Source: Schmidtea polychroa (taxonomy: Eukaryota). From it: a stretch of 64,000 nucleotides of DNA. Positions 7,245 through 60,590 of this stretch are shown here, piece after piece; the first letter of the stretch is position 1, and every line of letters starts with the position of its first letter. The stretch covers positions 28,770,001 through 28,834,000 of the forward strand of contig CM097885.1 in assembly GCA_044892525.1 (NCBI GenBank). The letters run 5' to 3'. The notes under the pieces are model-generated. The model was given only the letters and a program-made list of their open reading frames with translations, had not been told where the DNA came from and made no database searches. The position numbers and the translations under genes were made by a program.

Positions 7245-8699
7245 TAATATATGATTAATATATGATTAATTCCTCAATTCTATTGAATGTTGACTGTGTT
7301 GAGAAAAAATTGAATTTAGACCCACATAGCAGTAATATGATCGAAATGCGTCGTCAAATTACATACAGACACAACACTAAGTAAAGTTAAAATAGAAACT
7401 TGTTAAATCACCAACTAAACACAAATTAAAGAACTGACATACCGTCAAAATGATAAAACACAAAAGTAAATTAAAACAAGACAAGAAGTGTTGAACGAAA
7501 CAAACTCCAACATAGCATAGATAAAGAACAGAAACTAAAAAAATGCGAATTATTGGCGATAAAAGAAAGTAGGAAAAAGAATGGAAAAGATTTCCAAAAA
7601 ATAGCATTAAAATGAATGATGAGTCAAAATTATAATAGAAATGATAAGAAATATCAGAATATTCTATGTAAATGGCGAAATCTATAATGGGCGCTACATA
7701 ACTAATTGAGGTTAAGTAAAATATAAAAATATAAAATTTAAATTACCACAAACTAAAATAAAACAACGTAAGAATTAAAAGAAATAGGAATTACATAATA
7801 AAATTTTTAAAGTAACATAGAATATTCTATAAACTGGCCAAATCCATCATGGCGACGAAATTTATTAAAATTAAATAGAATATAGTATAAAGTGAGTCCA
7901 TGTCAATCTCCTATCTTATAGTCGAAAATATTTTTATTAAATACATTATTCGCAGCAAAAGGTTTAAATTATCACTGAATTGTTTTAAATAAAATTTAAA
8001 AATCAGAAAATAAAATAAATCATAAATTATAAAAATTAGTCATCAAAATTGAAGAAATTAAAATTCAAAATTAATCAGAATTATAATAATTCAAATTTGT
8101 TTTATTGAATCAGTGTACGCACACATAATCGCACACCAAAATCAGACTATAAATACTGACACATTTCAGTCATAATCCAATGCTGATATTTTGGTTAGAC
8201 CAAGATTTTTCTGAATTTGGCCAACTTACGATCTTGTAATTGTAAGAACTTTATATCAACTTTATATATTATGCTTACGTATTATGAATTTTTGTTTTCT
8301 TTTGTTGTTATCAAAAGACGAATTCACTTTCACATGATGAAATCGCTAAACCTTTTCGGTCACAGCTTGCAAGATAGTAAACTATATGAGAACGTACCTT
8401 AACAAAGTATGACAACTAATTACATTAATAATCTAATTAATAATACCCTTATGCTGTCAAAGTACCACAACTATAGAGGGAAATGGTGGATGGAGACGAA
8501 AAGAAATATCTAGGGATTAGCCTCCTTACTAATTATACACTCAACTTGCAACTTATTTTTATTTCTGGGTATAAAACCATATTCTATTATCAATTTATCC
8601 TTATTGAAGCATATATTTTTAAATTTAAATTCTATTGTCTGTTTCCCGTAATTTTTCTTTAATCTTTCCTTTAAATCTTTTATGTAATCATCTACCTCG

Positions 8700-13894: not shown

Positions 13895-13898
13895 TAAC

Positions 13899-14157
13899 GA
13901 CAAACACTGAACACCATACAATCTATCGGTTTCAACGCAATATATCTAGATGGTATCTTTATCACAGCGAAGAGCAGAAAAGAAGCGGAAGAAATTATTT
14001 ATATATGTAATGCGACTCACCGAGATATTAAGTTTAAAATCAGATATCCAGAAGAAGATGGATCCCTCAATTTACTTAAAAAAATAAAAGTACATACTCA
14101 GAAAAACGGATTCTACAAAAAACTGCATACGAAGAGCTATTTATGTACCACAGATCA
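13899..14157 (+). mobile_element. Old fragment of PLE family 1 RT
   Basis: Diverged match to about 57411-57680 (e.g. GAAGAAGATGGATCCCTCAATTTA shared). Confidence 0.85.
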
Positions 14158-22334: not shown

Positions 22335-25300
22335 CAGAGGCGCTCCAAGCGGGCGTGCAACGCGTGCGTAACACGCAGGCGGCCGTTTGAAAGGCGGCAA
22401 ATTAAAAAAATGCATTTGCAAAAACAACAATTTCATTTTGTAAAATTCATTTTTTCATTTTATAAAATAAAAAAAAAGTTTCGACTATTTTGTTACTGAA
22501 CGCACACAGTTTGTGTAGTATCATTGAACGCATTCCATTAATTTTTATATATCTGTCTTGGCTTGTCATTGACAAATACTATTACACTAAATAACTTTGA
22601 CAAGTTGTCAAAGTCATTTAGTGTTTTAATTTTGGATTCAAAACAACATTAATATTTCCAGTTTTTAAATTTATAAAAATCAATAAGATTTTTATTTTAA
22701 AAAAAAATAGAGATATATAATATTAGATTAGAAAGCAGGATTGTATTATAGAATTTGGTAAGTATAATGCCACTTTTTCTATATTTTTGTTAAACATAAG
22801 TGTTATGATGTACGTTAGATATTTATTATTTGTATTATTTGCACCATTAGATATGACCGGAAGAAAAACAAAACGTTTATCTGGCGCACAATACAAAAAG
22901 CAGCGTTTAAATAAACTGAAATCAATGCAGAGTTTGAAGAATTCGCTTTCAAAATATTTTGAAAATACACCAACAGCGTCGTCAAGCACACCTATAGAAA
23001 TAGAAAATAATGTCACCATATCTGTTGACGATAATAAAAGTTCTAGCGATAGCGATGAGAATGAATATGAAATTTTTACAGAAATTCGGTCTGAAAATTC
23101 ATCTGTTGGAAATTCAACTGACGAAAATTGTGAAGCAAATATAATATTGGACGATCCAGGTATGTGGGCAAATAATATATCAAGTATTACCGCATGTAAC
23201 CTTGTTGAAAGAGGACCGATTCAAATAAAAAATTTCGAATTTCCATTGTCAAGTGGGCGTAAATTTTCAAAAAAGTATTATTTAAGACAATTGCCGAACG
23301 GAGAAGAAACACAACGCGAATGGCTTGTGTATTCAATTACTAAAAATCTGTGTATTGTTTTTGCTGTAGGATATTTGATTTCAGTGATAAAAGCAGTCTT
23401 TCCGATTCATCTGGTTTTTCTGATTGGCAACATTTATCTTTAACTTTGTCTCGACATGAAAAAAGTCAGTTTCATAATGAAAATATAAAAAAATGGATAT
23501 TGTTAAATAAATCATTAAAAAATAATACTACAGTTGATAGTGCGAACCAAAGACTATTACAAGCCGAACGAAAGTATTGGTATGAAGTAATTCAACGAAT
23601 AATATCTATTATTCAATATCTTTCTAGGCAATGCCTTGCCATAAGAGGAAAGTCAAATCAATTATATGCAAATAACAATGGAAACTTTTTGAAAGCAGTA
23701 GAAATGGTTGCCAGATTTGACCCTATTATGCAAGAGCATGTACAACGGATTGAAAAGTCTCGAAACAATTTGAAATATATGCCTCATTATTTGGGGGGTA
23801 AAATACAAAACGAAATTATCAATATTATTAGCACAAGTATTAAAAACGCTATATTAGATTTAATTAGAAAAGCAAAATATTTTTCAATTATATTAGATTG
23901 CACACCAGATGTTAGTCATACTGAGCAATTAACTATTGTAATAAGAATTGTGAATTTGGAATCAAAAAAAATTGAAATACGTGAACATTTTTTGGGTTTC
24001 TATCAAATAACAAATACTACCGGCGAGGGGTTAACCGAATTTGTTTCAAAAGAACTTTCAAATCTAAATTTAAATATTCATAATATGCGTGGACAGGGAT
24101 ATGACAATGGTGCCAATATGCGAGGAAAGCATAATGGCTTACAAAAAAGAATTTTAAATATCAACCCGCGAGCATTTTTTGTACCATGTTCTGCTCATAG
24201 CTTAAATTTAGTTGTTAATGATGCGGCACATATTTCACATGAAACAGTAACATTTTTTGATTTAGTACAAGAAATATATGTAGTTTTTTCGGCGTCAACT
24301 AAAAGATGGACGATAATAGTAAAATATTTACCGAATTTAAAATTAAAACCCCTGAGCGATACAAGGTGGTCAAGTAGAATTGATGCCATACAACCACTAA
24401 GGTATCATACTGAACAAATTTATAAATCTCTTCTTGAAATATCAAATGATCAATTGATTGACTTTAAAACCAGACATGTGGCAAATTCTCTTTCACTAAA
24501 AATATCAAGTTATCGTTATTTATGTTCCATTGTTATTTGGCATGAAATTTTGATGAAAATTAATGTTGTTAGTCAAATATTACAGAACCCAAACACCGAT
24601 ATCAATAGAAGCGTTACCGCGTTAGATGATTTAATAGAGTTTTTTAAAAATTGTCGTAATGATAATGGATTTGAAAAAATGCTTACATCAGCTAGTGAAT
24701 TAGCCGAAAAATTACACGTAGAACCTAAATTTCCAGAAGTTTCAAGTTTAAGAATAAGAAGAAAAACAACAAATTTTGATTATGAAGGCAAGGATGAACC
24801 AATATTAGATCCAAAAACAAATTTTGAAATTAACTTTTATTTCTGCATTATCGACCAAGCATTAGTATCAATTACAACAAGATTCGAAGCGTTAAAATCG
24901 TATAATGATATATTTGGATTTATGTATACTATTAAAGATATAACAGAAGAAATACTTTTGAAAAGCTGCAAAGATTTACATTTGAAATTAACTGACGAAC
25001 AAAGAAATGAGTCCGATATTAATGGAATTGATTTATTCGAAGAGATAAAAACTATAAAGGTATTTTTAAAAGAAGAAGATATTAAACCTCAATCTATATT
25101 ATTATATATTTTACAAAATGATCTTCAGGCAACATTCCCAAATATATTTATTGTGACCAGAATTCTATTAACATTACCAATCTCAGTTGCAACAGGTGAA
25201 AGATCGTTTTCAAAATTGAAGATAATTAAAAATTATTTACGATCAACTATGCTCCAGGAACGTTTAAGTAATATATCAATAATTTCAATAGAACATGAAA

Positions 25301-25644
25301 TCCTAGATAATTTAGATATGCATGACTTAATTTCACAATTTGCTTTGAACAAGGCAAGAAAAGTCTCTTTTGTATGAGTAGTAAACTATTAATTTCATAA
25401 ACTTTTTATTGTTTGTGTGTACTAAACTATAACTTTCCTAAACTTATCTGTTTTGTGATTAATAAACTATAATTTTCATAAACTATTGCATGTGATATGT
25501 GTGTTCTTCCGTAGTTAATTTAATTTTTACTTTAATTAAATGTTATTTTTATTTTGGATTATAGAAACTTTTTTTGCAGCAAGGATGAAGAGCGGCGGGA
25601 AATTATTTTGCACTCAAGCGGCCTAACAGCTCGGCGCGCCCCTG
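22335..25644 (+). mobile_element. hAT transposon (Tip100/ZMYM1-like), full length
   Basis: Exact 8-bp TSD ATATTATT; imperfect TIR CAGAGGCGCTCC / GGCGCGCCCCTG; transposase inside. Confidence 0.95.
22853..25377 (+). pseudogene. hAT transposase with one frameshift near 23345
   Basis: WLVYS..[fs]..YCFCC zinc finger, ILDCTPDVSH, GQGYDNG, CSAHSLNL, TRW, GERSFSKLK dimerisation domain. Confidence 0.92.
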
Positions 25645-26886: not shown

Positions 26887-29800
26887 CAGGCCCGACGCTA
26901 GAGTATTTGGCGCCCTAGGCAAACTAAAAAAATGGCGCCTCTAGTCTAGAAACAAACCCAATAATTAAAGAAGTAAATGAAAATAAAATAACTATACTTC
27001 ATTTATTTATTACACAAAAATATATATAAAAACAAAAACCATTTAAAATTTAATTTTTCGTGCTTTTAGTTTAGCGAAATCTTCAAGCAGCAACTTCGTA
27101 TCTATATCACGCGCCATTTCGTGTTCAATCGACAATATTGCTAATCCCACAAGCCGTTCTTGTGACATTGTAGATCTTATATATGTTTTGATCTGTTTAA
27201 GCTTCGAAAAGCTTCGTTCACCGCTTGCCACAGAAACTGGTAGGGTTAATAAAATTCGCAAAGCAACAAATATATTTGGAACGCTGTCCACTATATTATT
27301 TTTACAAATATAATTAAGTACATCTTCCGGCAATAAGTTTTTTGGAATATGTCTAGCTATAAATATCAATTCGTTCAATAAATCTGTACCATCAATATCT
27401 TTAGAATCATCGTGCCGTAAAAATTTTCCAGTTTAAGACAATCCTCTAATATTTTCTTTGACGAAATATATTGCAAATTATGTATGTTGTATAGAAATCC
27501 AAATGTTGAATTTATCGTTGACATTTGGGTGAATCTTTGCTCAACAGATTTTAAAGCTCTATCCAAAACTGCGAAGTAAAAGCTGATCTTAAATTTTTCT
27601 TTTGGGTTCTGAATGGGCTCATCGTTGGCTTCATATTCGAACTGTTTTTTTTGTTTTCTGATACGCTGAGTTTGTTTAAAGATTGGGGAAATTTCTGATT
27701 CTTCAGCAAGTTCTCGCGCATCTACCAATATTCTTTCAAAACCTTCATCATTTCGGGAGTTGAATAGAAATTTTTTGGTATCTTCTAGTAGCTTCATAGC
27801 ATCTTGAATATTAATTTTCTCAGATTGAAGTTGTTTGCTTTTAATATTTATGTTGAAAAGAATATCATACCAGATAATAACAGAAACTACAAACTCGAAA
27901 TTCGAAATAGCTTTAGCAAGGCCCTGTGCTTCTATACGTGAAGTATTACCAGAAACTCCTGTTTGAGAAGTATCTTGAAAAATATCAATAAGTGCAGCAA
28001 TAACTTTACTTAGCTGATAGCGTAGAGGTTTAAGGGCATCGATTCGGCTCTCCCATCTTGTATCGCTCAATGGCTTCACTGTCAAGTTTGAAGCATGACG
28101 TTTTAAAACTTCCCATCGACGTGTTGAAGCGGCAAAATAGACATATATTCGTTGCACTAACATAAAAAATGATGTAGCATCTAAACAACAGCTTACAGCG
28201 TCATTAACAACCAGATTCAAAGAATGCGCAGAACAAGGAACAAATAGTGCTCGTGGATTTAGATTCAGAATTCGCCGTTGCACGCCATTTTCTTTGCCTT
28301 TCATATTGCTACCATTATCGTATCCTTGGCCACGCAAGTTCTCAATAGGTAATGACATATCTGCTAACATCTGAACGATTTCATCGGTCATACCAGCACC
28401 AGTTGTATCTGTTAGTTTCACAAATCCCAAAAAATGTTCTCTTATGCATATGGGATCTAAATCACAATTTTCTGTATTTGTATGGACAAAACGAATAATC
28501 AACGTCATTTGTTCAGTATGGCTAACGTCTGGTGTGCAATCCAGGATTATTGAAAAATATTTAGCCATGGAAATCGATTTTAAAATTTTTGTTTTAATAC
28601 TCTTAGATAAAAGTTGTATTAACTCATTCTGAATATCTTTTCCCAAATAATGAACTTGTGTTTCATTGTTCTTTATTCTGCGAAGATGCTCACCCATAAT
28701 TGGATCAAAAGAGGCCAAATATTCTACAAAGCTAAGGAAGTTTCCATTTCCAGGAGAATACAATTTTTCATTGCTTCCGCGAAATGCAATATTTTGCGTA
28801 GCAAGCACTTTAACTAGACCTATAAGACGCTCTAAGACTTGTTGCCAGTGTCTCTCTTCTTGTTTTATGAGACGCAAATTATCCTGGTCAATAGTTTTAT
28901 TCTTTTTTAAACGCAATTCTAGCTCCTTCCAAGTTTGAAAATTAATTAAATGATCCTTATTTTTCTCATGTCTTTCTAAAATTACAGACATATTTTTCCA
29001 ATCGCTTGATCCTTTATCGGAGAGATGTATTACACGCTGGTTATTATTAAAAATTTTGCAACAAAAGCAGAAAGCCGAATTAGTTGTTTTGGAATACTGT
29101 AGCCAATGACGCCGCATTTCTTCTCCATTTGCAAGTCTCCTTCTATAAAAATTCATTGAAAATTTTCTATGGCTCTCATTTTGAGGAAAATCAAATTCTT
29201 CAATTTGTTCTGGTCCGTGTTCAACCAAAATTTGCCTCAAACGGCCAGAACGTAAGTCATGTGAATTTAACCAAGTTGCCGGATCACTATAATCAAGACT
29301 CGAATTTACGCTTTCTAATATTTCAAAAGTTTCATTAATTAAAATTTCTTCAGTGTCTTCTATAGTTTCTAATACAATTTCTTCTATAGGTTCTTCAACA
29401 GTTTCTTCAATTGTTTCAACTTCAGTTTCTTCTATAGTTTCTTCCACATTCGTATGTGGAAACTCAGTCAAAATAGGCACCTCTGCATTTCTAGTTGTAG
29501 AGTTCCTATCCATTTGCTCTTCCAAATTGCAGTATACTTGTTTTCTCGGAGTCATTTCATTTCGATTTTTATCTTGTGATTGTTGACGACAAATATATTT
29601 CAGAAAAGCACCTTCTTGCTTTTTTTCTTCATTTTTCTTTTCAGCTTTACGTTTTCTATTTTGTGCGCCAGATAATTTTTTTCTATCTGCCATTATGCTA
29701 CCTCAAGTAAAAATTAATAGAATATAATAGATTTAATAATAGGTGTAGAAAAATCCAATATAAATTAAATTACTGTGTTGTATATATGTAAAAATTATAC

Positions 29801-33479: not shown

Positions 33480-33780
33480 AGATATAAAAGATTTTATAAT
33501 AATCTTTGGTGTGTACACCATTTGTAGGTAACTCAACCTTTATGAAGTTTGTAACTTCATTTATTCAATTTTAGAAATGGTTATCATGTTTATTTTAATA
33601 TTCAGTAAATTTAGGGGCTTGAACTTTGATTTTATATAATTATGAGATCATTCTTCAAGTTCTTAAATAATACTTTTAGTCGAAATTTGCATTATAAATT
33701 ATTTTTAATTAATTTTCAGATATTTTTAGGAATTTTATGAAATTTATTTTAGAATTATTTCGAATTATTTATTAAAGAAA
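33480..33780. repeat. Dispersed repeat of unknown class (inverted copy about 38330-38620, direct copy about 52360-52620)
   Basis: Shared GGTGTGTACA and TATGAGATCATT.TTCAAG.TCTTAAATA..ACTTTT blocks. Confidence 0.7.
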
Positions 33781-34576: not shown

Positions 34577-51423
<16,847 letters not shown>

Positions 51424-51579
51424 TAATAAATTTCCCAAATATGTAGGTTATTAATTTTATAGTAAATGAAATTATTCTTTTTTTCTATTAAATATTTGAA
51501 GTCTTTGAAGGAAATGGAACAAAATTGTTATATTTATCACAATAAAACACATTTACTTATAATTGAAAAATCGGTATAA

Positions 51580-51804
<225 letters not shown>

Positions 51805-53023
51805 ATAATTGTTGAAAAAAGCCTTTTACTGACTTGCTCAAACCCCATACAAAGGTATCTGCCTAAATGGAAGTAATTTGGTTCAAGCAAAGATTTGAAT
51901 AAGAAATTCTTCCTATTATATATCTAAGAGAATTAATAGAAAAGATAAAATTAACATAAAAACAGAACATAGTACATAAGGAATGCAAAATTTCAATATT
52001 CTTCCAAAATTCCATGACAGAACATCACTTTAAATTATGCGGAAAATGAAAATAAAACATCATAATAATAAATAATAATAATAACATGAACATTAACATT
52101 GCACTGATTTAAATTGTTTTCGACAGGCTCGAACTCATCATCAGGTAGGATAGAAAAAACCTATAAATACGGCTAATCAGCATTCTCCAAATTTTAAAAA
52201 CAAAGTTATTTTACATATAAATTTAACCATTCAATACATTTGAAAACAATGACAACCTACATACCTTCAATTTAACATCCAAACTATTTAAAAGCATTCA
52301 AAGCCAGAGTGTTCAGATATTGTTTGTATACACCCGCTTGCAGTGAACAAACGCATTCATAATATGGGTTGGTGTGTACAACCAATCATAGATGCGTCAC
52401 TATTTCTAATGAATGATTAAATTTCGGAATTAGGTGTAGTTAATTTAAGATTTACTATTTTAGCCGTTTTATAAATGTCTTTCAAGTAATTTTTTTTATT
52501 TAAAGGAAATTTTATGACTTGAATTTTGATCAATATATACTATATATTATATAGATATGAGATCATTATTCAAGCTCTTAAATATTACTTTTTATCAACA
52601 TTTTTTATTAAAATTTATCAATTTATATGTAGTGGTTGTTATGCTATACACAATGGAGATGCTGTCCTTTATTAGAGTACTCCAGTTCTTGAACATTTTC
52701 AATCATTATCAATCACCCAAATGAACGTACGTAATACGTAATATCGCCCGAACGCTACAAGCCGTATTCCGTATGTTCAGGTACAAAAAACTATATATTT
52801 TATTACAAATATTATTTGGTGACATCTAATATTGGAGCATCTGACTTGCAAAAAATACAAAAAAAAGTTCATATCTATCTATCTAATTGTAAGTATTTGT
52901 CTGGTATATTGTAAAGAAAGTAATGTTATTGCGAAATATAATAAAAAAACCCAATGTTTTTTTACCTACGTTTTGAATCATATCCCAAAGGTAGGGCGGT
53001 TAATCACAATAATGATTCTAAGC

Positions 53024-53214
53024 CAGGGGTTCTTAACCTTTTCAAACTTATGGACCCCATAAATATAAAATTGGTACCGACGGACCCCTGAAATGTTAAA
53101 AAATTAATAAATTGATAGTAAAACACATACATTTTTTAATAATTATTTATAAATCTGTTTATTCAGCTTCAAACAAAAATAATAGCTTTTTGTAAATAGT
53201 GCCGCGAACCACTG
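53024..53214. mobile_element. hAT (Charlie-type) MITE
   Basis: Ends CAGGGGTTC / GAACCACTG; exact 8-bp TSD TTCTAAGC. Confidence 0.9.
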
Positions 53215-54206
53215 TTCTAAGCAGATGATATGAGTAAAAACGATATACTTGATTTTAACATTTTATGAAAATAATTGAATAATTATTCAGAAAATGTGAT
53301 AATTGAAGCGTAGTTGATAAATTTATGTGCAAATTCTGTAAACTCGCTTTTTTTGCATTTTATTTTTTGCATCTATTTTTTAAATAATATTTTCATTATT
53401 TGGTTTTATTTCAAGAGTCAAACTGAGAAAGATTTTGAAATAATAGAGGATAAAATACTTTTCATGCGTTCATTGAACAGAAATAAAATAAATTCCAATC
53501 TCTGTCAAAGTTGACCTGGAAAGCAATTGTTAAAATTAATGAAATAGGATAAGAAACATTTTTGTAAAACTCTTGATACTGAGGGAAAGCAATTAACGAC
53601 TGTAAATAAGAAATAATTTTTAGATTAGAGAAATAATGGGAAATGTGGGTAACCTGATGCTTCATTAAAATAGATTTCAGGCGAAATTTCTTTCTGATTA
53701 TTTACAGTTTTTAAATAAAACAATTCCTTCGATTTTCTCAACTTATCTCGTGTCTCTGTAAATAATTATTCTAGTTGGTTATAATACAAGGATTTTGGAA
53801 ATAAATTTTTCGAATATAGAAAAATAACGTTTTATTATTAGAATACAATAATTAATAATTTCTCGCTTTCAATAAATCTTTTTGCACATAATATGTCGCA
53901 ATAATATTTTATAATAATTCATTTTTATGTCTATTTGAAGTTTAATTATTTTATTTAATTTAAATTATTTATTTAATTTAAATTAAAATCATTTGAATTA
54001 ATTAATTAATTAAATCAACTCTTTTTTTAAAACTTTTATAATTGTCTACATTTTAGGAAGAAATTAAACATCAATCGATAGAGAAAAATCAATTTACAAA
54101 TAATATTGAAATAAAAATATTACGTTGATTAAAATTAAAATTTTCCATGACCATCAATTATATATTAATAATCAAGAACTGTTAGGTCAAATTTATAAAA
54201 TTCGGT

Positions 54207-54256
<50 letters not shown>

Positions 54257-54261
<5 letters not shown>

Positions 54262-54470
54262 CACTAAAATGATAATTTAAGCCCTTTGCTGCAAATAATG
54301 TATTTAATGAAAGAATTTTCGACTATACGATAGTCCTTGTCAATGAGATTGACAAGGACTATCGTATAGTCGAAAATTCTTTCATTAAATACATTATTTG
54401 CAGCAAAAGGCTTAAATTATCATTTTAGTGTTTTAAATAATAAATGCTGCTACCAAGCAATCATCATTTT
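54257..54470. mobile_element. Non-coding palindromic mini-insertion of the PLE family 1 3' end, between (TAA)n tracts
   Basis: 88-bp arms 54257-54344 and 54348-54435 with a GAG loop and one mismatch, then the same 35-nt tail as at 58871-58905. Confidence 0.9.
54342..54386 (+). ncRNA. Minimal hammerhead ribozyme, U3-A8 core variant
   Basis: AATGAGA TTGACAA G GACTAT-CGT-ATAGTC GAAA ATTC TTTCATT; 7-bp stem I with one G-U; mirror copy on the minus strand (core 54337-54343) lacks stem I. Confidence 0.7.
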
Positions 54471-54540
54471 ATAATAATAATAATAATAATAATAAACAAT
54501 AAAATGATAATTTAAGCCTTTTGCTGCAAATAATGTATTT

Positions 54541-54583
54541 AATGAAAGAATTTTCGACTATAAGATAGTCCTTGTCAATCTCC
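54541..54583 (-). ncRNA. Minimal hammerhead ribozyme, U3-A8 variant, in the inverted duplicate
   Basis: Reverse complement of 58779-58821. Confidence 0.65.
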
Positions 54584-54974
54584 TGGAATTTAGCAATGTT
54601 CTTCCCCAAAATACCTTTCAATCTTTCTTTTATTTCCTTTCTCTTAATTCTCATTGGTTGTAAATATAATGAATTGTTTTACTAAAAACTTTTAAAATTT
54701 TTACATTTAAAATTTCAAAATGACATAAACTAAAAATTTTTAAATTTTTTACAGCTTCTATAATTAGCTTCTAGAAGCCTAATAAAATATTTGAATATAT
54801 TTTAAATAAAGCCTCCAATAACTACTTATATATGCTATTTAAATATTTCAATAAATGTGTCAATTTTGATTTTCAAACCCTATTTTTTAAAATTTTTTTA
54901 TATTATTCTAATTATTACTTTTTAATTTATTCTATTTTTTTAATTTCTTTATATATTGTCAGTTATTCTCAAAC

Positions 54975-56029
54975 TCAATGACAACAGATCAAATTCATGA
55001 TTTCATTGATTTCTTCTTTAGTGTTGATCTTTGGCTGTCTGTTTATGATGAGAATTGCTTCTTTGATTCTGACATTTTTCTTTTGGATGTTTCCATTAGC
55101 TATGATTTCTATTGAAATATTTTTTCTTTCTTCTGTTGGCTGACACTGCCGGAGATGTCTGCCCAACGAGGATGTTCCACCAGGATCTAGATGTTCTTTA
55201 ACTCTTTGGTGCAATGTCCTGAGGGTACTTCCAATGTAGATTTCATTGCATACATTGCACGTGATGCAATAGACGATGTTTTTTCTAAAGCACATATCTT
55301 TCGGTGTCTGGCAGTTTTTCATTGTGCAATTGTTTTCTCTATTTATGTTGCCTGCCAGAGCCCTTCTCAATGTCCAAGATTTATGTGCTATCCGAATTGG
55401 AAGACCGGTACGTTTAAGTTCTTTCAGGATCTTGAAGTCGAGTATGTCACTGATGAATGGGATATTCAGATAGAAATATTTCTGATTCTTTTGTGTTAAT
55501 TCCCTAGATCTTCTTGGGGTAGAATTCATTCTTTCAATGTCCTCACCTTGGTATCCGTTTCGGTGTAGGATTTTATTGAAATTTGATTGCTCTATAAAGT
55601 TTTCTTTTTCTCCGTGCATCGATTGGCTATTCTTCGTTTCTCGTTTCTTATGACATGTACTTTCTGTAAGTATGGAAGCGCTGATCTTTGGTGCATAAAT
55701 ATTTCTTTGCGAGCTGGTTTTCTGTAGAACCCGTATGTTGGAGTATTTTCTTCTATTTTGATTCTCAAATCCAATAAATTGAGGGATCCATCTTCTTCCG
55801 GATATTCGATTTCGAACTTAATATCTTGATGAGCCGCATTGAATGTATGAAATATTTCCTCCGCTTCTTTTTTGTTTTTGGTCGTGATGAAGATATCATC
55901 AACATATCTTGCATAGAAACCGATGGGTTGTATGGTCCTCAGTGTCTGTCGTTCGAGGTTATCCATAAAAATGATTGCTAGCAGTCCTGATATGCTAGAA
56001 CCCATAGGCAGACCTTTAACTTGTTTATA
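54975..56029 (-). pseudogene. Inverted partial RT plus GIY-YIG copy with a 1-nt frameshift near 55605
   Basis: Track ORFs 55592-56005 and 54975-55619 duplicate the C-terminal part of the 788-aa ORF. Confidence 0.93.
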
Positions 56030-58387
56030 AAGAGAAATAAAAACATCAAAGATTATATTTTAACAAATTTAATTAGAAGTATGTACGGAGAAACTCATCG
56101 AGAACAAAAGAATCAAGAAAACATTTTGAAAACGTATTTGAATAACCACCCAAAAGAATTGATCTACGAGGTACAAAGACAATCCTTCATGACAGCAGAA
56201 GCACATTATTCCTTGCGATTTGAAAAAAGAATCAAACACCTTTTGAGAAAAAAGGAGCTCAAAGCAGGCCTTGTTATGAACAATGAAACACTGGACGGAA
56301 ACGAAAGCATTACAGTGAACAAAGAACTAGTAACCGATCTCACAAATTGTCTATCCAAAGGTGAAAAAGGATTACTTTCACTAGGACCAAAGTTCAGTAT
56401 AAACAGAGAAATAGATGAAGCAGCCATCCTCAATTTCAAAACAGCTCTTTGTCGCATTGCGTACCAGATCAAATGGAACAATACAATACCGCATGAAAAT
56501 GAAAATAGCGAAAACCAGCTCCCAGTATACATAAACACAGATAAACTCTATCAACCAAATCCTGATGCAGAATTAGATTCAACACTCTCAAAGGTCTGTC
56601 ACAAAATCATGGAGATAGTTGAAAAGGAAAGAAGAAAACCATATCTCTCAAACCTAACGAAAGACGAAAAGGCAATATTAAAATCCCTTAAAAAGAAACC
56701 GTACGTTTACTTACCAAGTGACAAGGGGGGAGAATTTTGCATTATAGAGAAGAATCGTTACTGTGAAGCTGGTTACGAACACCTCGGCAACATCGAAACA
56801 TACAAGAAAGTCAGCCGCATGTCACCAAACACCATCGAAATGAAGATCAACAAAGTATGGAAAGCCATAACTTTGGAAATGAAGCTCAACAACAGAATAA
56901 CCAACAGCTTCGTCACAAAAAATTCTGATCTTCCTAACTTCTACCACCTAATTAAAACTCACAAAGAGGGTCCTGGTATCAAAATTAGACCTATAGTGTC
57001 CAACAAAAATGGACCAACAACTAAAACAAGTTGGCTCCTTGCAAAGATCTTGAAACCTTTATTAGACACGATACCACACCATCTTCAAAGCAGCGACTGC
57101 CTCATGACAAGACTAAATAATAACATGATTTGTCATAGAGAATTCCAATACCCATTTAGTCTTGATGTCGTATCACTATACACATCTATCGAACCAACAG
57201 AGGCTATTCAATGTTTAGAAAAGAAATTAAGAGAAAGCAACTTGTTAATAAAGGAAATGAATATCGAGAATATCACCAAACTACTTACTGTTATCCTCGA
57301 GAACACCTATTTTACCTTTGAACAAAATATCTATAAACAAGTTAAAGGTCTGCCTATGGGTTCTAGCATATCAGGACTGCTAGCAATCATCTTTATGGAT
57401 AACCTCGAACGACAGACACTGAGGACCATACAACCCATCGGTTTCTATGCAAGATATGTTGATGATATCTTCATCACGACCAAAAACAAAAAAGAAGCGG
57501 AGGAAATATTTCATACATTCAATGCGGCTCATCAAGATATTAAGTTCGAAATCGAATATCCGGAAGAAGATGGATCCCTCAATTTATTGGATTTGAGAAT
57601 CAAAATAGAAGAAAATACTCCAACATACGGGTTCTACAGAAAACCAGCTCGCAAAGAAATATTTATGCACCAAAGATCAGCGCTTCCATACTTACAGAAA
57701 GTACATGTCATAAGAAACGAGAAACGAAGAATAGCCAATCGATGCACGGAGAAAAAAGAAAACTTTATAGAGCAATCAAATTTCAATAAAATCCTACACC
57801 GAAACGGATACCAAGGTGAGGACATTGAAAGAATCAATTCTACTCCAAGAAGATCTAGGGAATTAACACAAAAGAATCAGAAATATTTCTATCTGAATAT
57901 CCCATTCATCAGTGACATACTCGACTTCAAGATCCTGAAAGAACTTAAACGTACCGGTCTTCCAATTCGGATAGCACATAAATCTTGGACATTGAGAAGG
58001 GCTCTGGCAGGCAACATAAATAGAGAAAACAATTGCACAATGAAAAACTGCCAGACACCGAAAGATATGTGCTTTAGAAAAAACATCGTCTATTGCATCA
58101 CGTGCAATGTATGCAATGAAATCTACATTGGAAGTACCCTCAGGACATTGCACCAAAGAGTTAAAGAACATCTAGATCCTGGTGGAACATCCTCGTTGGG
58201 CAGACATCTCCGGCAGTGTCAGCCAACAGAAGAAAGAAAAAATATTTCAATAGAAATCATAGCTAATGGAAACATCCAAAAGAAAAATGTCAGAATCAAA
58301 GAAGCAATTCTCATCATAAACAGACAGCCAAAGATCAACACTAAAGAAGAAATCAATGAAATCATGAATTTGATCTGTTGTCATTGA
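56021..58387 (+). CDS. PLE reverse transcriptase plus GIY-YIG endonuclease, N-terminally truncated
   Basis: PSDKGG, IKTHK..IRPIVS, SLDVVSLYTSI, GLPMGS, RYVDD, LLDL, YRKP, IVYCITC..C..IYIGST.R.L.QR.KEH. Confidence 0.95.
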   Translation: MFIKRNKNIKDYILTNLIRSMYGETHREQKNQENILKTYLNNHPKELIYEVQRQSFMTAEAHYSLRFEKRIKHLLRKKELKAGLVMNNETLDGNESITVNKELVTDLTNCLSKGEKGLLSLGPKFSINREIDEAAILNFKTALCRIAYQIKWNNTIPHENENSENQLPVYINTDKLYQPNPDAELDSTLSKVCHKIMEIVEKERRKPYLSNLTKDEKAILKSLKKKPYVYLPSDKGGEFCIIEKNRYCEAGYEHLGNIETYKKVSRMSPNTIEMKINKVWKAITLEMKLNNRITNSFVTKNSDLPNFYHLIKTHKEGPGIKIRPIVSNKNGPTTKTSWLLAKILKPLLDTIPHHLQSSDCLMTRLNNNMICHREFQYPFSLDVVSLYTSIEPTEAIQCLEKKLRESNLLIKEMNIENITKLLTVILENTYFTFEQNIYKQVKGLPMGSSISGLLAIIFMDNLERQTLRTIQPIGFYARYVDDIFITTKNKKEAEEIFHTFNAAHQDIKFEIEYPEEDGSLNLLDLRIKIEENTPTYGFYRKPARKEIFMHQRSALPYLQKVHVIRNEKRRIANRCTEKKENFIEQSNFNKILHRNGYQGEDIERINSTPRRSRELTQKNQKYFYLNIPFISDILDFKILKELKRTGLPIRIAHKSWTLRRALAGNINRENNCTMKNCQTPKDMCFRKNIVYCITCNVCNEIYIGSTLRTLHQRVKEHLDPGGTSSLGRHLRQCQPTEERKNISIEIIANGNIQKKNVRIKEAILIINRQPKINTKEEINEIMNLICCH

Positions 58388-58778
58388 GTTTGAGAATAAC
58401 TGACAATATATAAAGAAATTAAAAAAATAGAATAAATTAAAAAGTAATAATTAGAATAATATAAAAAAATTTTAAAAAATAGGGTTTGAAAATCAAAATT
58501 GACACATTTATTGAAATATTTAAATAGCATATATAAGTAGTTATTGGAGGCTTTATTTAAAATATTTTCAAATATTTTATTAGGCTTCTAGAAGCTAATT
58601 ATAGAAGCTGTAAAAAATTTAAAAATTTTTAGTTTATGTCATTTTGAAATTTTAAATGTAAAAATTTTAAAAGTTTTTAGTAAAACAATTCATTATATTT
58701 ACAACCAATGAGAATTAAGAGAAAGGAAATAAAAGAAAGATTGAAAGGTATTTTGGGGAAGAACATTGCTAAATTCCA

Positions 58779-58821
58779 GGAGATTGACAAGGACTATCTT
58801 ATAGTCGAAAATTCTTTCATT
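58779..58821 (+). ncRNA. Minimal hammerhead ribozyme, U3-A8 variant, in the PLE 3' region
   Basis: GAGA TTGACAA G GACTAT-CTT-ATAGTC GAAA ATTC TTTC; predicted cut after C58814; palindromic AATT stem III. Confidence 0.68.
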
Positions 58822-58909
58822 AAATACATTATTTGCAGCAAAAGGCTTAAATTATCATTTTATTGTTTTAAATAATAAATGCTGCTACCAAGCAATCATC
58901 ATTTTATAC

Positions 58910-59039
<130 letters not shown>

Positions 59040-60590
59040 CAAACATTCTTTTCACGATATATTTCGACAGTTTTCTTGTCATCATCAGGTAGGATATAAT
59101 AACTATATAAATTAAGGATTTTAAACAAATTTATAAATTTTATTAACTATATAAAAAACATTTTATTTAATAAAAACATTTCATTCTTTTTTTTAAAAAT
59201 TATAATGAAAATAATATTTTATTTTTCAAATTTTAACATTTTGAATTTAATTTAATAATTTAAAAATTTTTTTATTAATTATTTAATTTAACAAACAACA
59301 TCCAATATACAGCAAATTATTTAGAAACATTTAAAAACAAGTATTCAATGCATTCTGCACATTAATTTTTGGATTCAATGACTTTATCAACAACGCCTCA
59401 CAAATCACACGTTCCCAATAATTATCGAAATGTTTTAATAAAATTTTAAAATTAGACATACCTATTTTACTTTTACAGCCCTTATTGTGCTCAATAATAT
59501 TGGTCAAAACCTTCGATCTATAATGCTCTCGAGGTCGAATACAGAGATGACGGGAAGTCTCTTCAATGTATGTGGCATTACACCCATTACATGTAAATTG
59601 ATAAACGAGATCGGAATATAATTCGACCGCAGTGTTAGACTTATTAATAAACATATTGCGTACTTTCCATGAAGTTGACACTATCCTATAGTTTAAATTC
59701 CCTAACTGGTTTCTTATCTTCACTTTATAATCCTTAAAACCTTCTAAGTACGGCAATACTAACACAAATTTAAGCTTATCATTCTTGCTCACACTATTTA
59801 ATTTATTTAAATCATCAGACTCACACGCCTCAACAAAATCACACCCAGATTTTCTCAAACATGGATCTTTAGGATTTTTAATAAATTTGTCAACAGTCTC
59901 TTTTACCATAATTAATAAAAAGGATTTCGAATAACCGTTCTTCATTAACATTTCAACCAATTTGTCAACACTTTTTACTGAATTTACAAAAGTAGAAGAC
60001 AAAGATCTACGTTTTCAACCACTTCACCATATTTCTTTTATACTTGAATTCACAAAAACTTTCGGATGAAGTATAGAGACCAGTATCAGTTGGTTTTCTA
60101 TAAATCTCTGTCTCATAGTGTTTCTCTTTGCGTTGTATTAACAGATCCAAGAAAACAAGTGATGATTTTTTCTCCATTTCACTTTGAATACAATGTTTTA
60201 TGTAGACTATTCATACAATGCAAAAACGGATGAACATGCAAGAAATCATCAAAATATAAGAAAAACATCATGCAATTTTCTTTTCTAAGCATGCCAAAAC
60301 AATTGAAGCCATCGTTGGTGTGAGGCGTTTTAGCAATTTGTATTAAAATAATGGTGTGATATTGTGCATGTTTGATTGTATGTTGAAATCCTTACTTATA
60401 CATTAATTATTATTTTTTAGAAACTCCTCAAACAAATTAACGTTATATTTTGTTTTAATAGTTTTTGTATTTTGAATAATAAACGTGTTAGTATAATTTG
60501 TTATTATGGATTCGATTAATACCGTATCTCTGTGGCTAATAGTTGGTGCTAAAGGCGAACCCATAGCAACTCCATCTATTTGTTGATACC
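59040..60590 (-). mobile_element. Penelope-like retroelement, family 2, degenerate
   Basis: YQQIDGVAMGSPLAPT, FLDLLI, IYRKPTDTGLY, VLPYL, LVYQFTC.GC.ATYI.ETSRHL..R.REH; frameshifts and a short interruption near 60330-60535. Confidence 0.9.
59053..59091 (-). ncRNA. Minimal hammerhead ribozyme, canonical core
   Basis: Minus strand TAC CTGATGA T GACA-AGAAAAC-TGTC GAAA TATATC GTG; palindromic ATATAT stem III. Confidence 0.8.

What the first reader, a model, noticed from the sequence alone, without database searches (positions are those of the whole stretch)
54257..54470. 214-bp palindromic, ribozyme-only mini-insertion with the same architecture as the 4.4-kb PLE
Seen: an 88-bp near-perfect palindrome holding back-to-back hammerhead cores, plus the 35-nt tail, flanked by (TAA)n. 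It differs from the large neighbour at diagnostic sites (CGT/CTT loop, TAGTG/TATTG), so it is a separate insertion. The fold-back junction supplies a 7-bp stem I (AATGAGA/TTTCATT), longer than the 4 bp in the large copy. Inference: either an extremely truncated inverted PLE insertion or a retrozyme-like non-autonomous unit; it would also be a hairpin small-RNA source if transcribed.
Basis: partly seen in the sequence, partly recalled or inferred. Interest (0 to 1): 0.7.

Follow-up and report, generated by a model that had tools for sequence, protein, structure and literature searches.

The report
Head-to-head Penelope retrotransposon leader stub
This 214-base hairpin-shaped insert is two short end-pieces of a very abundant Penelope-like jumping gene joined head to head in a TAA repeat, a known insertion layout; it was likely made once at this site from the element's RNA, and its ribozyme motif is predicted to be locked inside the hairpin, so it is probably not a self-copying ribozyme element.

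Summary
In detail: 88-bp arms (one mismatch) around a 3-nt loop, a 35-nt one-sided tail, (TAA)n flanks, and two alleles that separate it from the 4.4-kb RT/GIY-YIG neighbour. Three corrections. (1) It is not ribozyme-only: the tail holds the element's likely ORF start (MLL..., 95 nt after the hammerhead core; 80-104 nt in 8 of 15 motif hits in relatives). (2) Only the + strand core has a stem I. (3) The 7-bp stem I is a roughly 9% coincidence and is predicted to be unusable: the hammerhead fold lies 52.6 kcal/mol above the hairpin. The family is very abundant in public runs and the CGT allele is common. No listed contig bridges this junction, while other fold-back junctions appear singly. Verdict: a one-off, extremely short head-to-head Penelope-like insertion, not a retrozyme. 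Likely mechanism: both cut target strands prime at the two start sites flanking the tail and copy back to the hammerhead's 5' edge, possibly the RNA's 5' end; a second stub in the window stops at the same edge. The layout is published, and this scan noted such stubs many times in this and other genomes. Interest low.

The parts
54209..54259 (+). (TAA)17 target microsatellite, left flank; last 3 nt overlap the inverted arm (microhomology)
54257..54344 (-). Inverted arm: copy of large-element positions 58783-58870, ending at the family's tail-less 3' end; one private substitution at 54284
   Evidence: loose ends at 58870/58878
54313..54343 (-). Minimal U3:A8 hammerhead core on the - strand, with only 1 bp of stem I
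54345..54347 (+). Loop = first 3 nt of the sense arm (large-element 58780-58782); junction between 54344 and 54345 has no microhomology to the large copy's upstream sequence
54345..54435 (+). Sense arm: copy of large-element 58780-58870 (hammerhead and 5' leader)
54342..54386 (+). Minimal type I hammerhead motif: stem I 54342-54348/54380-54386, core from 54349, stem II 54357-54362/54366-54371, predicted cut after 54379; predicted sequestered in the hairpin
   Evidence: motif definition PMC4209133
54436..54470 (+). One-sided 35-nt tail; holds the likely ORF start codon at 54444 (MLLPSNHHF)
   Evidence: loose ends at 58907/58908
54472..54495 (+). (TAA)8 spacer between the stub and the large element
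54494..58909 (+). Neighbouring large insertion of the same family: inverted arm 54494-56029, 5'-truncated sense copy 56030-58909 with RT and C-terminal GIY-YIG (open frame 55991-58387), hammerhead at 58784, tail with ATG at 58879
7883..7993 (.). Second, older stub of the same family: inverted tail end (7883-7895, 12/13 to 58899-58911), inverted 58779-58794 (7896-7911, 15/16), then sense 58795-58876 (7912-7993, 73/82)

Best explanation
The feature is two short copies of the end module (hammerhead, leader, first codons) of an abundant endonuclease-bearing Penelope-like element joined head to head in a TAA repeat, and it was likely made once at this site when both cut target strands primed reverse transcription at the element's two start sites, 35 nt apart, and each copy likely ran back about 90-125 nt to the 5' edge of the hammerhead before the two were joined. 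Shown: the anatomy, the parent family, the two 3' ends shared with the family, the separate origin from the neighbour. From published work on another PLE: both strands are nicked at ATT and extended from two internal start sites that bound the tail (PMC11167929). [quoted passage not shown] Predicted: if read through, the RNA folds as one 88-bp hairpin and does not self-cleave, so the copy is a dead end.
For: Same layout as the neighbour, which encodes RT + GIY-YIG. Arms end at the two 3' positions where family contigs run into TAA/TTA repeats (58870/58878 and 58907/58908). Both arms share two alleles absent from the neighbour; one (58799 G) is a common family allele, 14-29% of summed depth in 4 of 4 runs. 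Other fold-back junctions at other positions, 4 of 4 rows each in one contig of one run; one X1 contig has a sibling junction 2 nt shorter. Tail = ORF start: 20 of 45 homologues of 820-920 aa have ML[LI] in their first 60 aa; 8 of 15 hammerhead hits in 43 related loci have ATG-ML[LM] 80-104 nt after the core start, expected 0.016 per window; 95 nt here. Three 5' ends in the window lie at 58779, 58780 and 58783. The older stub at 7883-7993 has an inverted arm that starts at the tail end, skips what the sense arm copied and resumes exactly at the base next to the sense arm's start, as twin priming on one RNA predicts (background for the 13-nt match 7 of 58,991 positions). Summed contig depth rises 2.2-3.0 fold at 58779 in 4 of 4 runs. 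Hairpin beats the hammerhead fold by 52.6 kcal/mol and at every transcript length tested.
Against: The junction itself was not recovered: none of the 32 listed pieces (of 3,191) in 4 runs bridges it, so uniqueness is inferred, not counted; no genome was available. The depth step is ambiguous: the tool warns depth is no copy number, and 62-75% of depth at 58814 comes from a divergent subfamily whose upstream part may fall below the 90% threshold. No pooled loose end at 58780 is among the 24 rows shown (1,119 not shown), and 5' ends seen scatter over 58780-58810, a range that the query itself limited. The two arms of the large neighbour stop kilobases away, and the related locus L003 starts 20 nt after its cut site. 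Only two independent events in the window support the shared stop point (chance 2-10%). Self-priming on an antisense template is the published alternative for such junctions (PMC3846280).
Confidence: 0.8

Rival explanations
1. Same kind of object, other route: one short cDNA (or an antisense template) folded back and primed its own inverted copy, or both arms are ordinary random 5' truncations with no defined stop point.
For: Both arms share the same two alleles, which one-template copying also gives. Self-priming is proposed in PMC3846280. 5' ends in contigs scatter over 30 nt.
Against: No stem near the cDNA 3' end to fold back on, given the large copy's upstream sequence. A fold-back copy must still end at the family's second natural 3' end, which twin priming gives directly. 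The stub at 7883-7993 needs two primers or a template jump.
Confidence: 0.3
2. A non-autonomous, retrozyme-like unit with a fixed junction that is transcribed, self-cleaves through the 7-bp stem I and is re-inserted by the PLE protein.
For: The isolated sense arm with the 3 extra bases folds as a hammerhead with stem I pair probabilities 0.73-0.97 versus about 0.1 in the large copy. A sibling junction 2 nt shorter exists in one contig. Animal retrozymes are proposed to derive from pLTRs (10.64898/2026.07.22.740005).
Against: In the full unit stem I probability is about 1e-36. On each strand the antisense arm is made first. No tandem same-strand units; minimal hammerheads showed no detectable cleavage as monomers (PMC4209133). 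A high-copy exact junction would be expected among the longest pieces and was not listed. 7 bp arises at 10 of 112 fold-back points.
Confidence: 0.05
3. The template was a spliced leader RNA: the sense arm begins right after a CAG, and a donor at 58658 would leave an exon ending in AAT, giving the same 7-bp stem I and a 3-nt overlap with the inverted arm.
For: The sense arm starts exactly after the only CAG|G among 13 YAG sites in 58390-58910. One of 11 upstream GT sites gives the identical 7-bp stem. In D. virilis the PLE intron ends at the 5' end of helix I (PMC4209133).
Against: One hit in 11 donors is what a 9% chance rate gives. Only 2 of 15 related motifs have any AG in the 14 nt before the core. 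No such joint among the 15 rows shown (49 not shown). The putative RNA run X7 shows the unspliced upstream sequence. PLEs are reported to retain introns on transposition (PMC2377424, PMC8557442).
Confidence: 0.05
4. Assembly or library fold-back artefact.
For: No listed contig bridges the junction in 4 runs; the two best runs lack 7-9% of sampled words of 53000-54600.
Against: The mirror stops at the element's natural tail-less end instead of running into tail and flank; the arms differ at one site; both carry alleles unlike the neighbour; comparable fold-back joints occur in contigs.
Confidence: 0.03

Closest known systems
Complex insertion units of EN+ Penelope-like elements: inverted 5'-truncated copy head-to-head with the element and a 30-40-bp tail on one end (PMC8557442, passages read; PMC3846280, passages and Discussion read)
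   Same: Head-to-head arms, one-sided 35-nt tail, simple AT-rich repeat target; pLTR plus tail includes the first codons of the ORF, as for Pen2a_Av
   Different: Both arms are only 88-126 nt, so the whole insertion is pLTR-derived; both stop within 3 nt of each other at the hammerhead's 5' edge; target is (TAA)n
Poseidon_Ac (PAc) in vitro mechanism (PMC11167929, abstract, main text and start of methods read)
   Same: Two internal RT start sites bounding the tail, cleavage at ATT in AT-rich DNA, both strands extended, hammerhead near the ORF start and not needed for insertion
   Different: In PAc the ORF starts inside the hammerhead and RT starts 111-118 nt into the ORF; here the ATG is 95 nt after the core and inside the tail. 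The parent has a cysteine linker before GIY-YIG, which PMC8557442 gives for Neptune/Nematis, not Penelope/Poseidon; clade not resolved by a tree
Minimal type I hammerheads of metazoan PLE pLTRs, U3:A8 variant (PMC4209133, results and discussion read)
   Same: U3:A8 core, unpaired base between 9 and 10.1, G10.1-C11.1, long stem II, short stem I, palindromic 15.2-16.2; that paper already reports dual motifs 100-700 bp apart on opposite strands
   Different: The two cores here lie only a few nt apart at the apex of one hairpin; the junction lengthens stem I on one strand by chance
Non-LTR (animal) retrozymes (PMC7229834, passages read; 10.64898/2026.07.22.740005, parts 1-3 of 5 read)
   Same: Short, non-coding, hammerhead-bearing, pLTR-related
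   Different: Retrozymes are same-strand tandem repeats with at least two hammerheads that release a monomer able to circularise; this is an inverted pair with one core per strand inside a hairpin

Membership tests
EN+ PLE complex insertion | Sequence belongs to the pLTR of an element with RT and GIY-YIG in one ORF | tested here: met
   98% identical to 58780-58906; neighbour ORF has RVT_1 and GIY-YIG; homologues up to 41% identical over 97% of its length
EN+ PLE complex insertion | Inverted 5'-truncated copy joined head to head | tested here: met
EN+ PLE complex insertion | 30-40-bp tail on one end only | tested here: met
   35 nt, 54436-54470; both ends recur in family contigs
EN+ PLE complex insertion | AT-rich or simple-repeat target | tested here: met
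   (TAA)17 and (TAA)8 flanks
EN+ PLE complex insertion | Target-site duplication | tested here: inconclusive
   Cannot be delimited inside a TAA tract; no empty allele available
EN+ PLE complex insertion | pLTR and tail contain the ORF's first codons | tested here: met
   the match beyond MLL is weak (rank 16-17 of 1,209 open ATG 10-mers)
Minimal PLE hammerhead (min-HHR) | Conserved core with paired 3:8, extra base after 9, G10.1-C11.1, palindromic minimal helix III | tested here: met
   against the definition
Minimal PLE hammerhead (min-HHR) | Self-cleavage (as dimer or protein-assisted) | not testable with these tools
   Folding predicts sequestration in this copy
Non-LTR retrozyme | Same-strand tandem repeat with two or more consecutive hammerhead units | tested here: not met
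   One core per strand within the unit; on the - strand the neighbour's core lies 235 nt upstream, but the second core lacks stem I
Non-LTR retrozyme | Canonical or stably folding hammerhead able to release a monomer | tested here: not met
   Minimal motif; 52.6 kcal/mol above the hairpin
Non-LTR retrozyme | Unit propagates as a family with fixed boundaries | tested here: inconclusive
   Exact junction not among 32 listed pieces of 3,191; other junctions single; no genome to count in
Non-LTR retrozyme | Expressed as circular RNA | not testable with these tools
   No RNA holder listed
Neptune/Nematis clade (parent) | Cysteine-rich linker between RT and EN, plus CCHH in EN | tested here: inconclusive
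   C-x4-C-x6-C linker conserved with homologues, not the exact CX2-5CxxC of PMC8557442; no labelled references for a tree

The most novel reading that the evidence does not exclude
The stub is a copy of a spliced leader RNA of the element: splicing to the acceptor at the hammerhead's 5' edge replaces a 4-bp stem I with a 7-bp one and so switches the ribozyme on, and twin-primed run-off from that leader leaves hairpin stubs whose junction preserves the last three exon bases. Such stubs would map the processed 5' end of PLE RNA from genome sequence alone and show that spliced PLE RNA can be retrotransposed.
Probability: 0.05. Interest if true: 0.55.

Novelty: new member of a known kind. Interest (0 to 1): 0.22.

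Why it matters
As an object it is transposon debris of a published layout. Its use is as one data point on how Penelope-like elements make their inverted ends, which is still open: if stubs pile up at the hammerhead's 5' edge, the genome records twin priming from the two tail start sites and run-off at the RNA 5' end, a prediction that one genome-wide count and one 5' RACE can test. The older stub at 7883-7993 is the more informative of the two for that question.

Tried and rejected
Genome-wide BLAST for the junction: not possible, no genome held. Look-up of earlier findings by the stub's sequence: nothing. Rfam: no hammerhead family hit; only a weak miRNA-model match to the hairpin apex, E 0.036, far below gathering score, taken as chance. 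Expression: no RNA holder listed; the guessed RNA run X7 gave 43 contigs on the multi-copy arms and none listed across the junction, which says nothing on this locus. Junction in short-read contigs: not listed in 4 runs; hairpin dropout, the tool's filter or another individual may explain it. Empty-site test: not attempted, the TAA tracts are longer than the contig word size. Selected 7-bp stem I: rejected as chance. Conserved splice acceptor at helix I: not supported in relatives. Native hairpin at the junction that could self-prime: the large copy and the older stub both have a different upstream sequence. Dimer fold of two sense arms: the MFE dimer keeps one stem I and pairs stem II strands between molecules, not a double hammerhead; not informative. 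A profile of homologue N-termini ranks the tail peptide only 16-17 of 1,209, so the ORF-start call rests on MLL plus position. Literature searches listed no paper devoted to pLTR-only head-to-head stubs as run-off products; most subscription papers are outside the library and no supplements were opened.

Full report
Observation. The feature is as described. Arms 54257-54344 and 54348-54435 are complementary at 87 of 88 positions around a 3-nt loop; a 35-nt tail follows on the right only; (TAA)17 and (TAA)8 flank it. It folds at -134.9 kcal/mol, z -25.8. A pattern search finds a minimal hammerhead core on each strand; five such motifs occur in the window against 0.02 in shuffles. The motif matches the U3:A8 variant defined in PMC4209133 (results and discussion read), which already mentions dual motifs close together on opposite strands.

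Parent. The right 127 nt are 98% identical to 58780-58906, the end of the neighbouring 4.4-kb element. That element has the same plan on a larger scale: a 1,537-nt inverted arm at 99.7% identity, a sense copy and a one-sided tail. [quoted passage not shown] Both arms of the stub carry G at the large copy's 58799 and 58863, so the stub came from another RNA than the neighbour. The 58799 allele is common in the family, 14-29% of summed depth in 4 of 4 runs, so it marks a separate insertion, not a separate family.

The tail is the start of the gene. It reads MLLPSNHHF from 54444. Of 45 homologues of 820-920 aa (from 120 listed), 20 have ML[LI] in their first 60 residues and 16 begin with MLL. In 43 related loci from metagenomes a search gave 15 hammerhead hits; 8 of 15 have ATG-ML[LM] 80-104 nt after the core start, against 0.016 expected per window, one hit has too little sequence, and the distance here is 95 nt. 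Beyond MLL the peptide match is weak. This fits Pen2a_Av, whose pLTR and tail hold the first 12-22 codons (PMC3846280, passages). So the stub is a piece of the element's leader: hammerhead, untranslated region, first codons. It is not ribozyme-only.

The ribozyme is predicted to be off. Forcing stems I and II costs 52.6 kcal/mol against the hairpin, and stem I pair probabilities are about 1e-36. On either strand the antisense arm is transcribed first, and stem II never forms at any of 7 transcript lengths tested on the + strand. The - strand core has 1 bp of stem I. The 7-bp stem on the + strand is real in the isolated arm (probabilities 0.73-0.97), but 10 of 112 simulated fold-back points give 7 bp or more when the sense arm starts at 58780. 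Minimal hammerheads did not cleave as monomers (PMC4209133), and cleavage was not needed for insertion by PAc in vitro (PMC11167929).

Family evidence. No genome is held, so I used assembled contigs of public runs. On 58250-58910, 10,049 to 39,868 contigs were laid per run; loose ends into TAA/TTA repeats pool at 58870/58878 and 58907/58908, the two ends used by the stub. On 54296-54396, none of the 32 listed pieces (of 3,191) bridges the junction; the four fold-back joints listed lie at other positions (inverted arm to 58801-58810, sense arm from 58784-58805), each in one contig of one run; several copies start at 58780-58800 next to ATT repeats or other DNA; one X1 contig joins an inverted arm ending at 58783 to a sense arm starting at 58782 with the other loop allele (19 loose-end rows shown, 13 not). 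I read this as many independent stubs with variable junctions. It is not a count, and a hole in contigs proves nothing.

Mechanism. PAc nicks both strands at ATT in AT-rich DNA and extends both from two internal sites that bound the tail; shortening the RNA 5' end shortens the product (PMC11167929). Applied here (inference): the top-strand nick primed at 58870, the bottom-strand nick at 58906, each over a few T/A bases shared with the TAA tract, and the two cDNAs stopped at 58783 and 58780 and were joined. Why they stop there is the open step. For it: a second, older stub at 7883-7993 also ends at 58779; its inverted arm starts at the tail end (12/13), skips the part copied by the sense arm and resumes at 58794, next to the sense arm's first base 58795, as two primers on one RNA would give; summed depth rises 2.2-3.0 fold at 58779 in 4 of 4 runs. 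Against it: only two independent events (chance 2-10%); the depth step can come from a divergent subfamily; no pooled 5' end at 58780 among the rows shown; the neighbour's arms and L003 stop elsewhere. I put the one-off head-to-head stub at about 0.88, twin priming at about 0.65, and run-off at a defined RNA 5' end at about 0.5.

Rivals. Self-priming (PMC3846280, Discussion) or plain early drop-off gives the same kind of object. A retrozyme-like family fails on tandem layout and fold (definitions in PMC7229834, passages; 10.64898/2026.07.22.740005, parts 1-3). A spliced template is attractive because the sense arm starts after a CAG, a donor at 58658 rebuilds the same 7-bp stem, and the D. virilis intron ends at helix I, but the numbers are at chance level and relatives lack the acceptor. 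An artefact is unlikely because the mirror stops at a natural element end and the arms differ.

Novelty and verdict. The layout is published (PMC8557442, passages; PMC3846280). My seven paper searches listed no paper on pLTR-only head-to-head stubs as run-off products; supplements, such as Fig. S2 of PMC11167929, were not opened and may bear on this. This scan has noted the same kind of stub repeatedly in this genome and others; those notes are unchecked and are not counted as support. New member of a known kind; interest 0.22.

Noticed in passing
window 7883-7993: Older stub of the same family with a three-part structure (inverted tail end, inverted 16 nt of the hammerhead's 5' part, sense arm) that looks like twin priming with a template jump on one RNA; more informative on mechanism than the finding itself.
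   Followed up: yes
window 59041-60400 (- strand): A second PLE family abuts the same TAA tract from the right: C3:G8 minimal hammerhead at 59088, GIY-YIG-like frame 59331-60014, related copies at 43265-43831 and 49099-49467. Three PLE insertions thus share one (TAA)n site.
   Followed up: partly
window 58748-58779: A 32-nt GT..AG stretch ends right before the hammerhead; one contig in each of 4 runs skips 58750-58780, one base off a clean splice of it. Unexplained.
   Followed up: partly
L001:2044, L006:2078, L010:2159, L019:2307: Related PLE hammerheads with an A3:U8 core pair, a third state beside C3:G8 and U3:A8; most relatives have a U-rich tract just before helix I.
   Followed up: no
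window 58836-58849; L001, L002, L006: A short GCAGCA..GG-like motif between hammerhead and start codon recurs in relatives about 40% identical in protein; candidate cis element.
   Followed up: no
window 33608-33669 (+), 38440-38500 (-), 52508-52584 (+): Three mir-753/bantam-like hairpins, all below Rfam's gathering score; the last lies 1.7 kb upstream of the stub on the + strand, so read-through into the hairpin is conceivable.
   Followed up: no
window 50359-51423: Intronless rhodopsin-family GPCR frame between inverted tetranucleotide tracts (50180-50314 and 51576-51790).
   Followed up: no
window 22727-25377, 27375-29702 (-), 39862-41718 (-): Long frames that resemble hAT-type transposases (recalled resemblance, not scanned).
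   Followed up: no
window 13896-14157: Diverged RT fragment of the same PLE group, 76% DNA identity to the large element.
   Followed up: no
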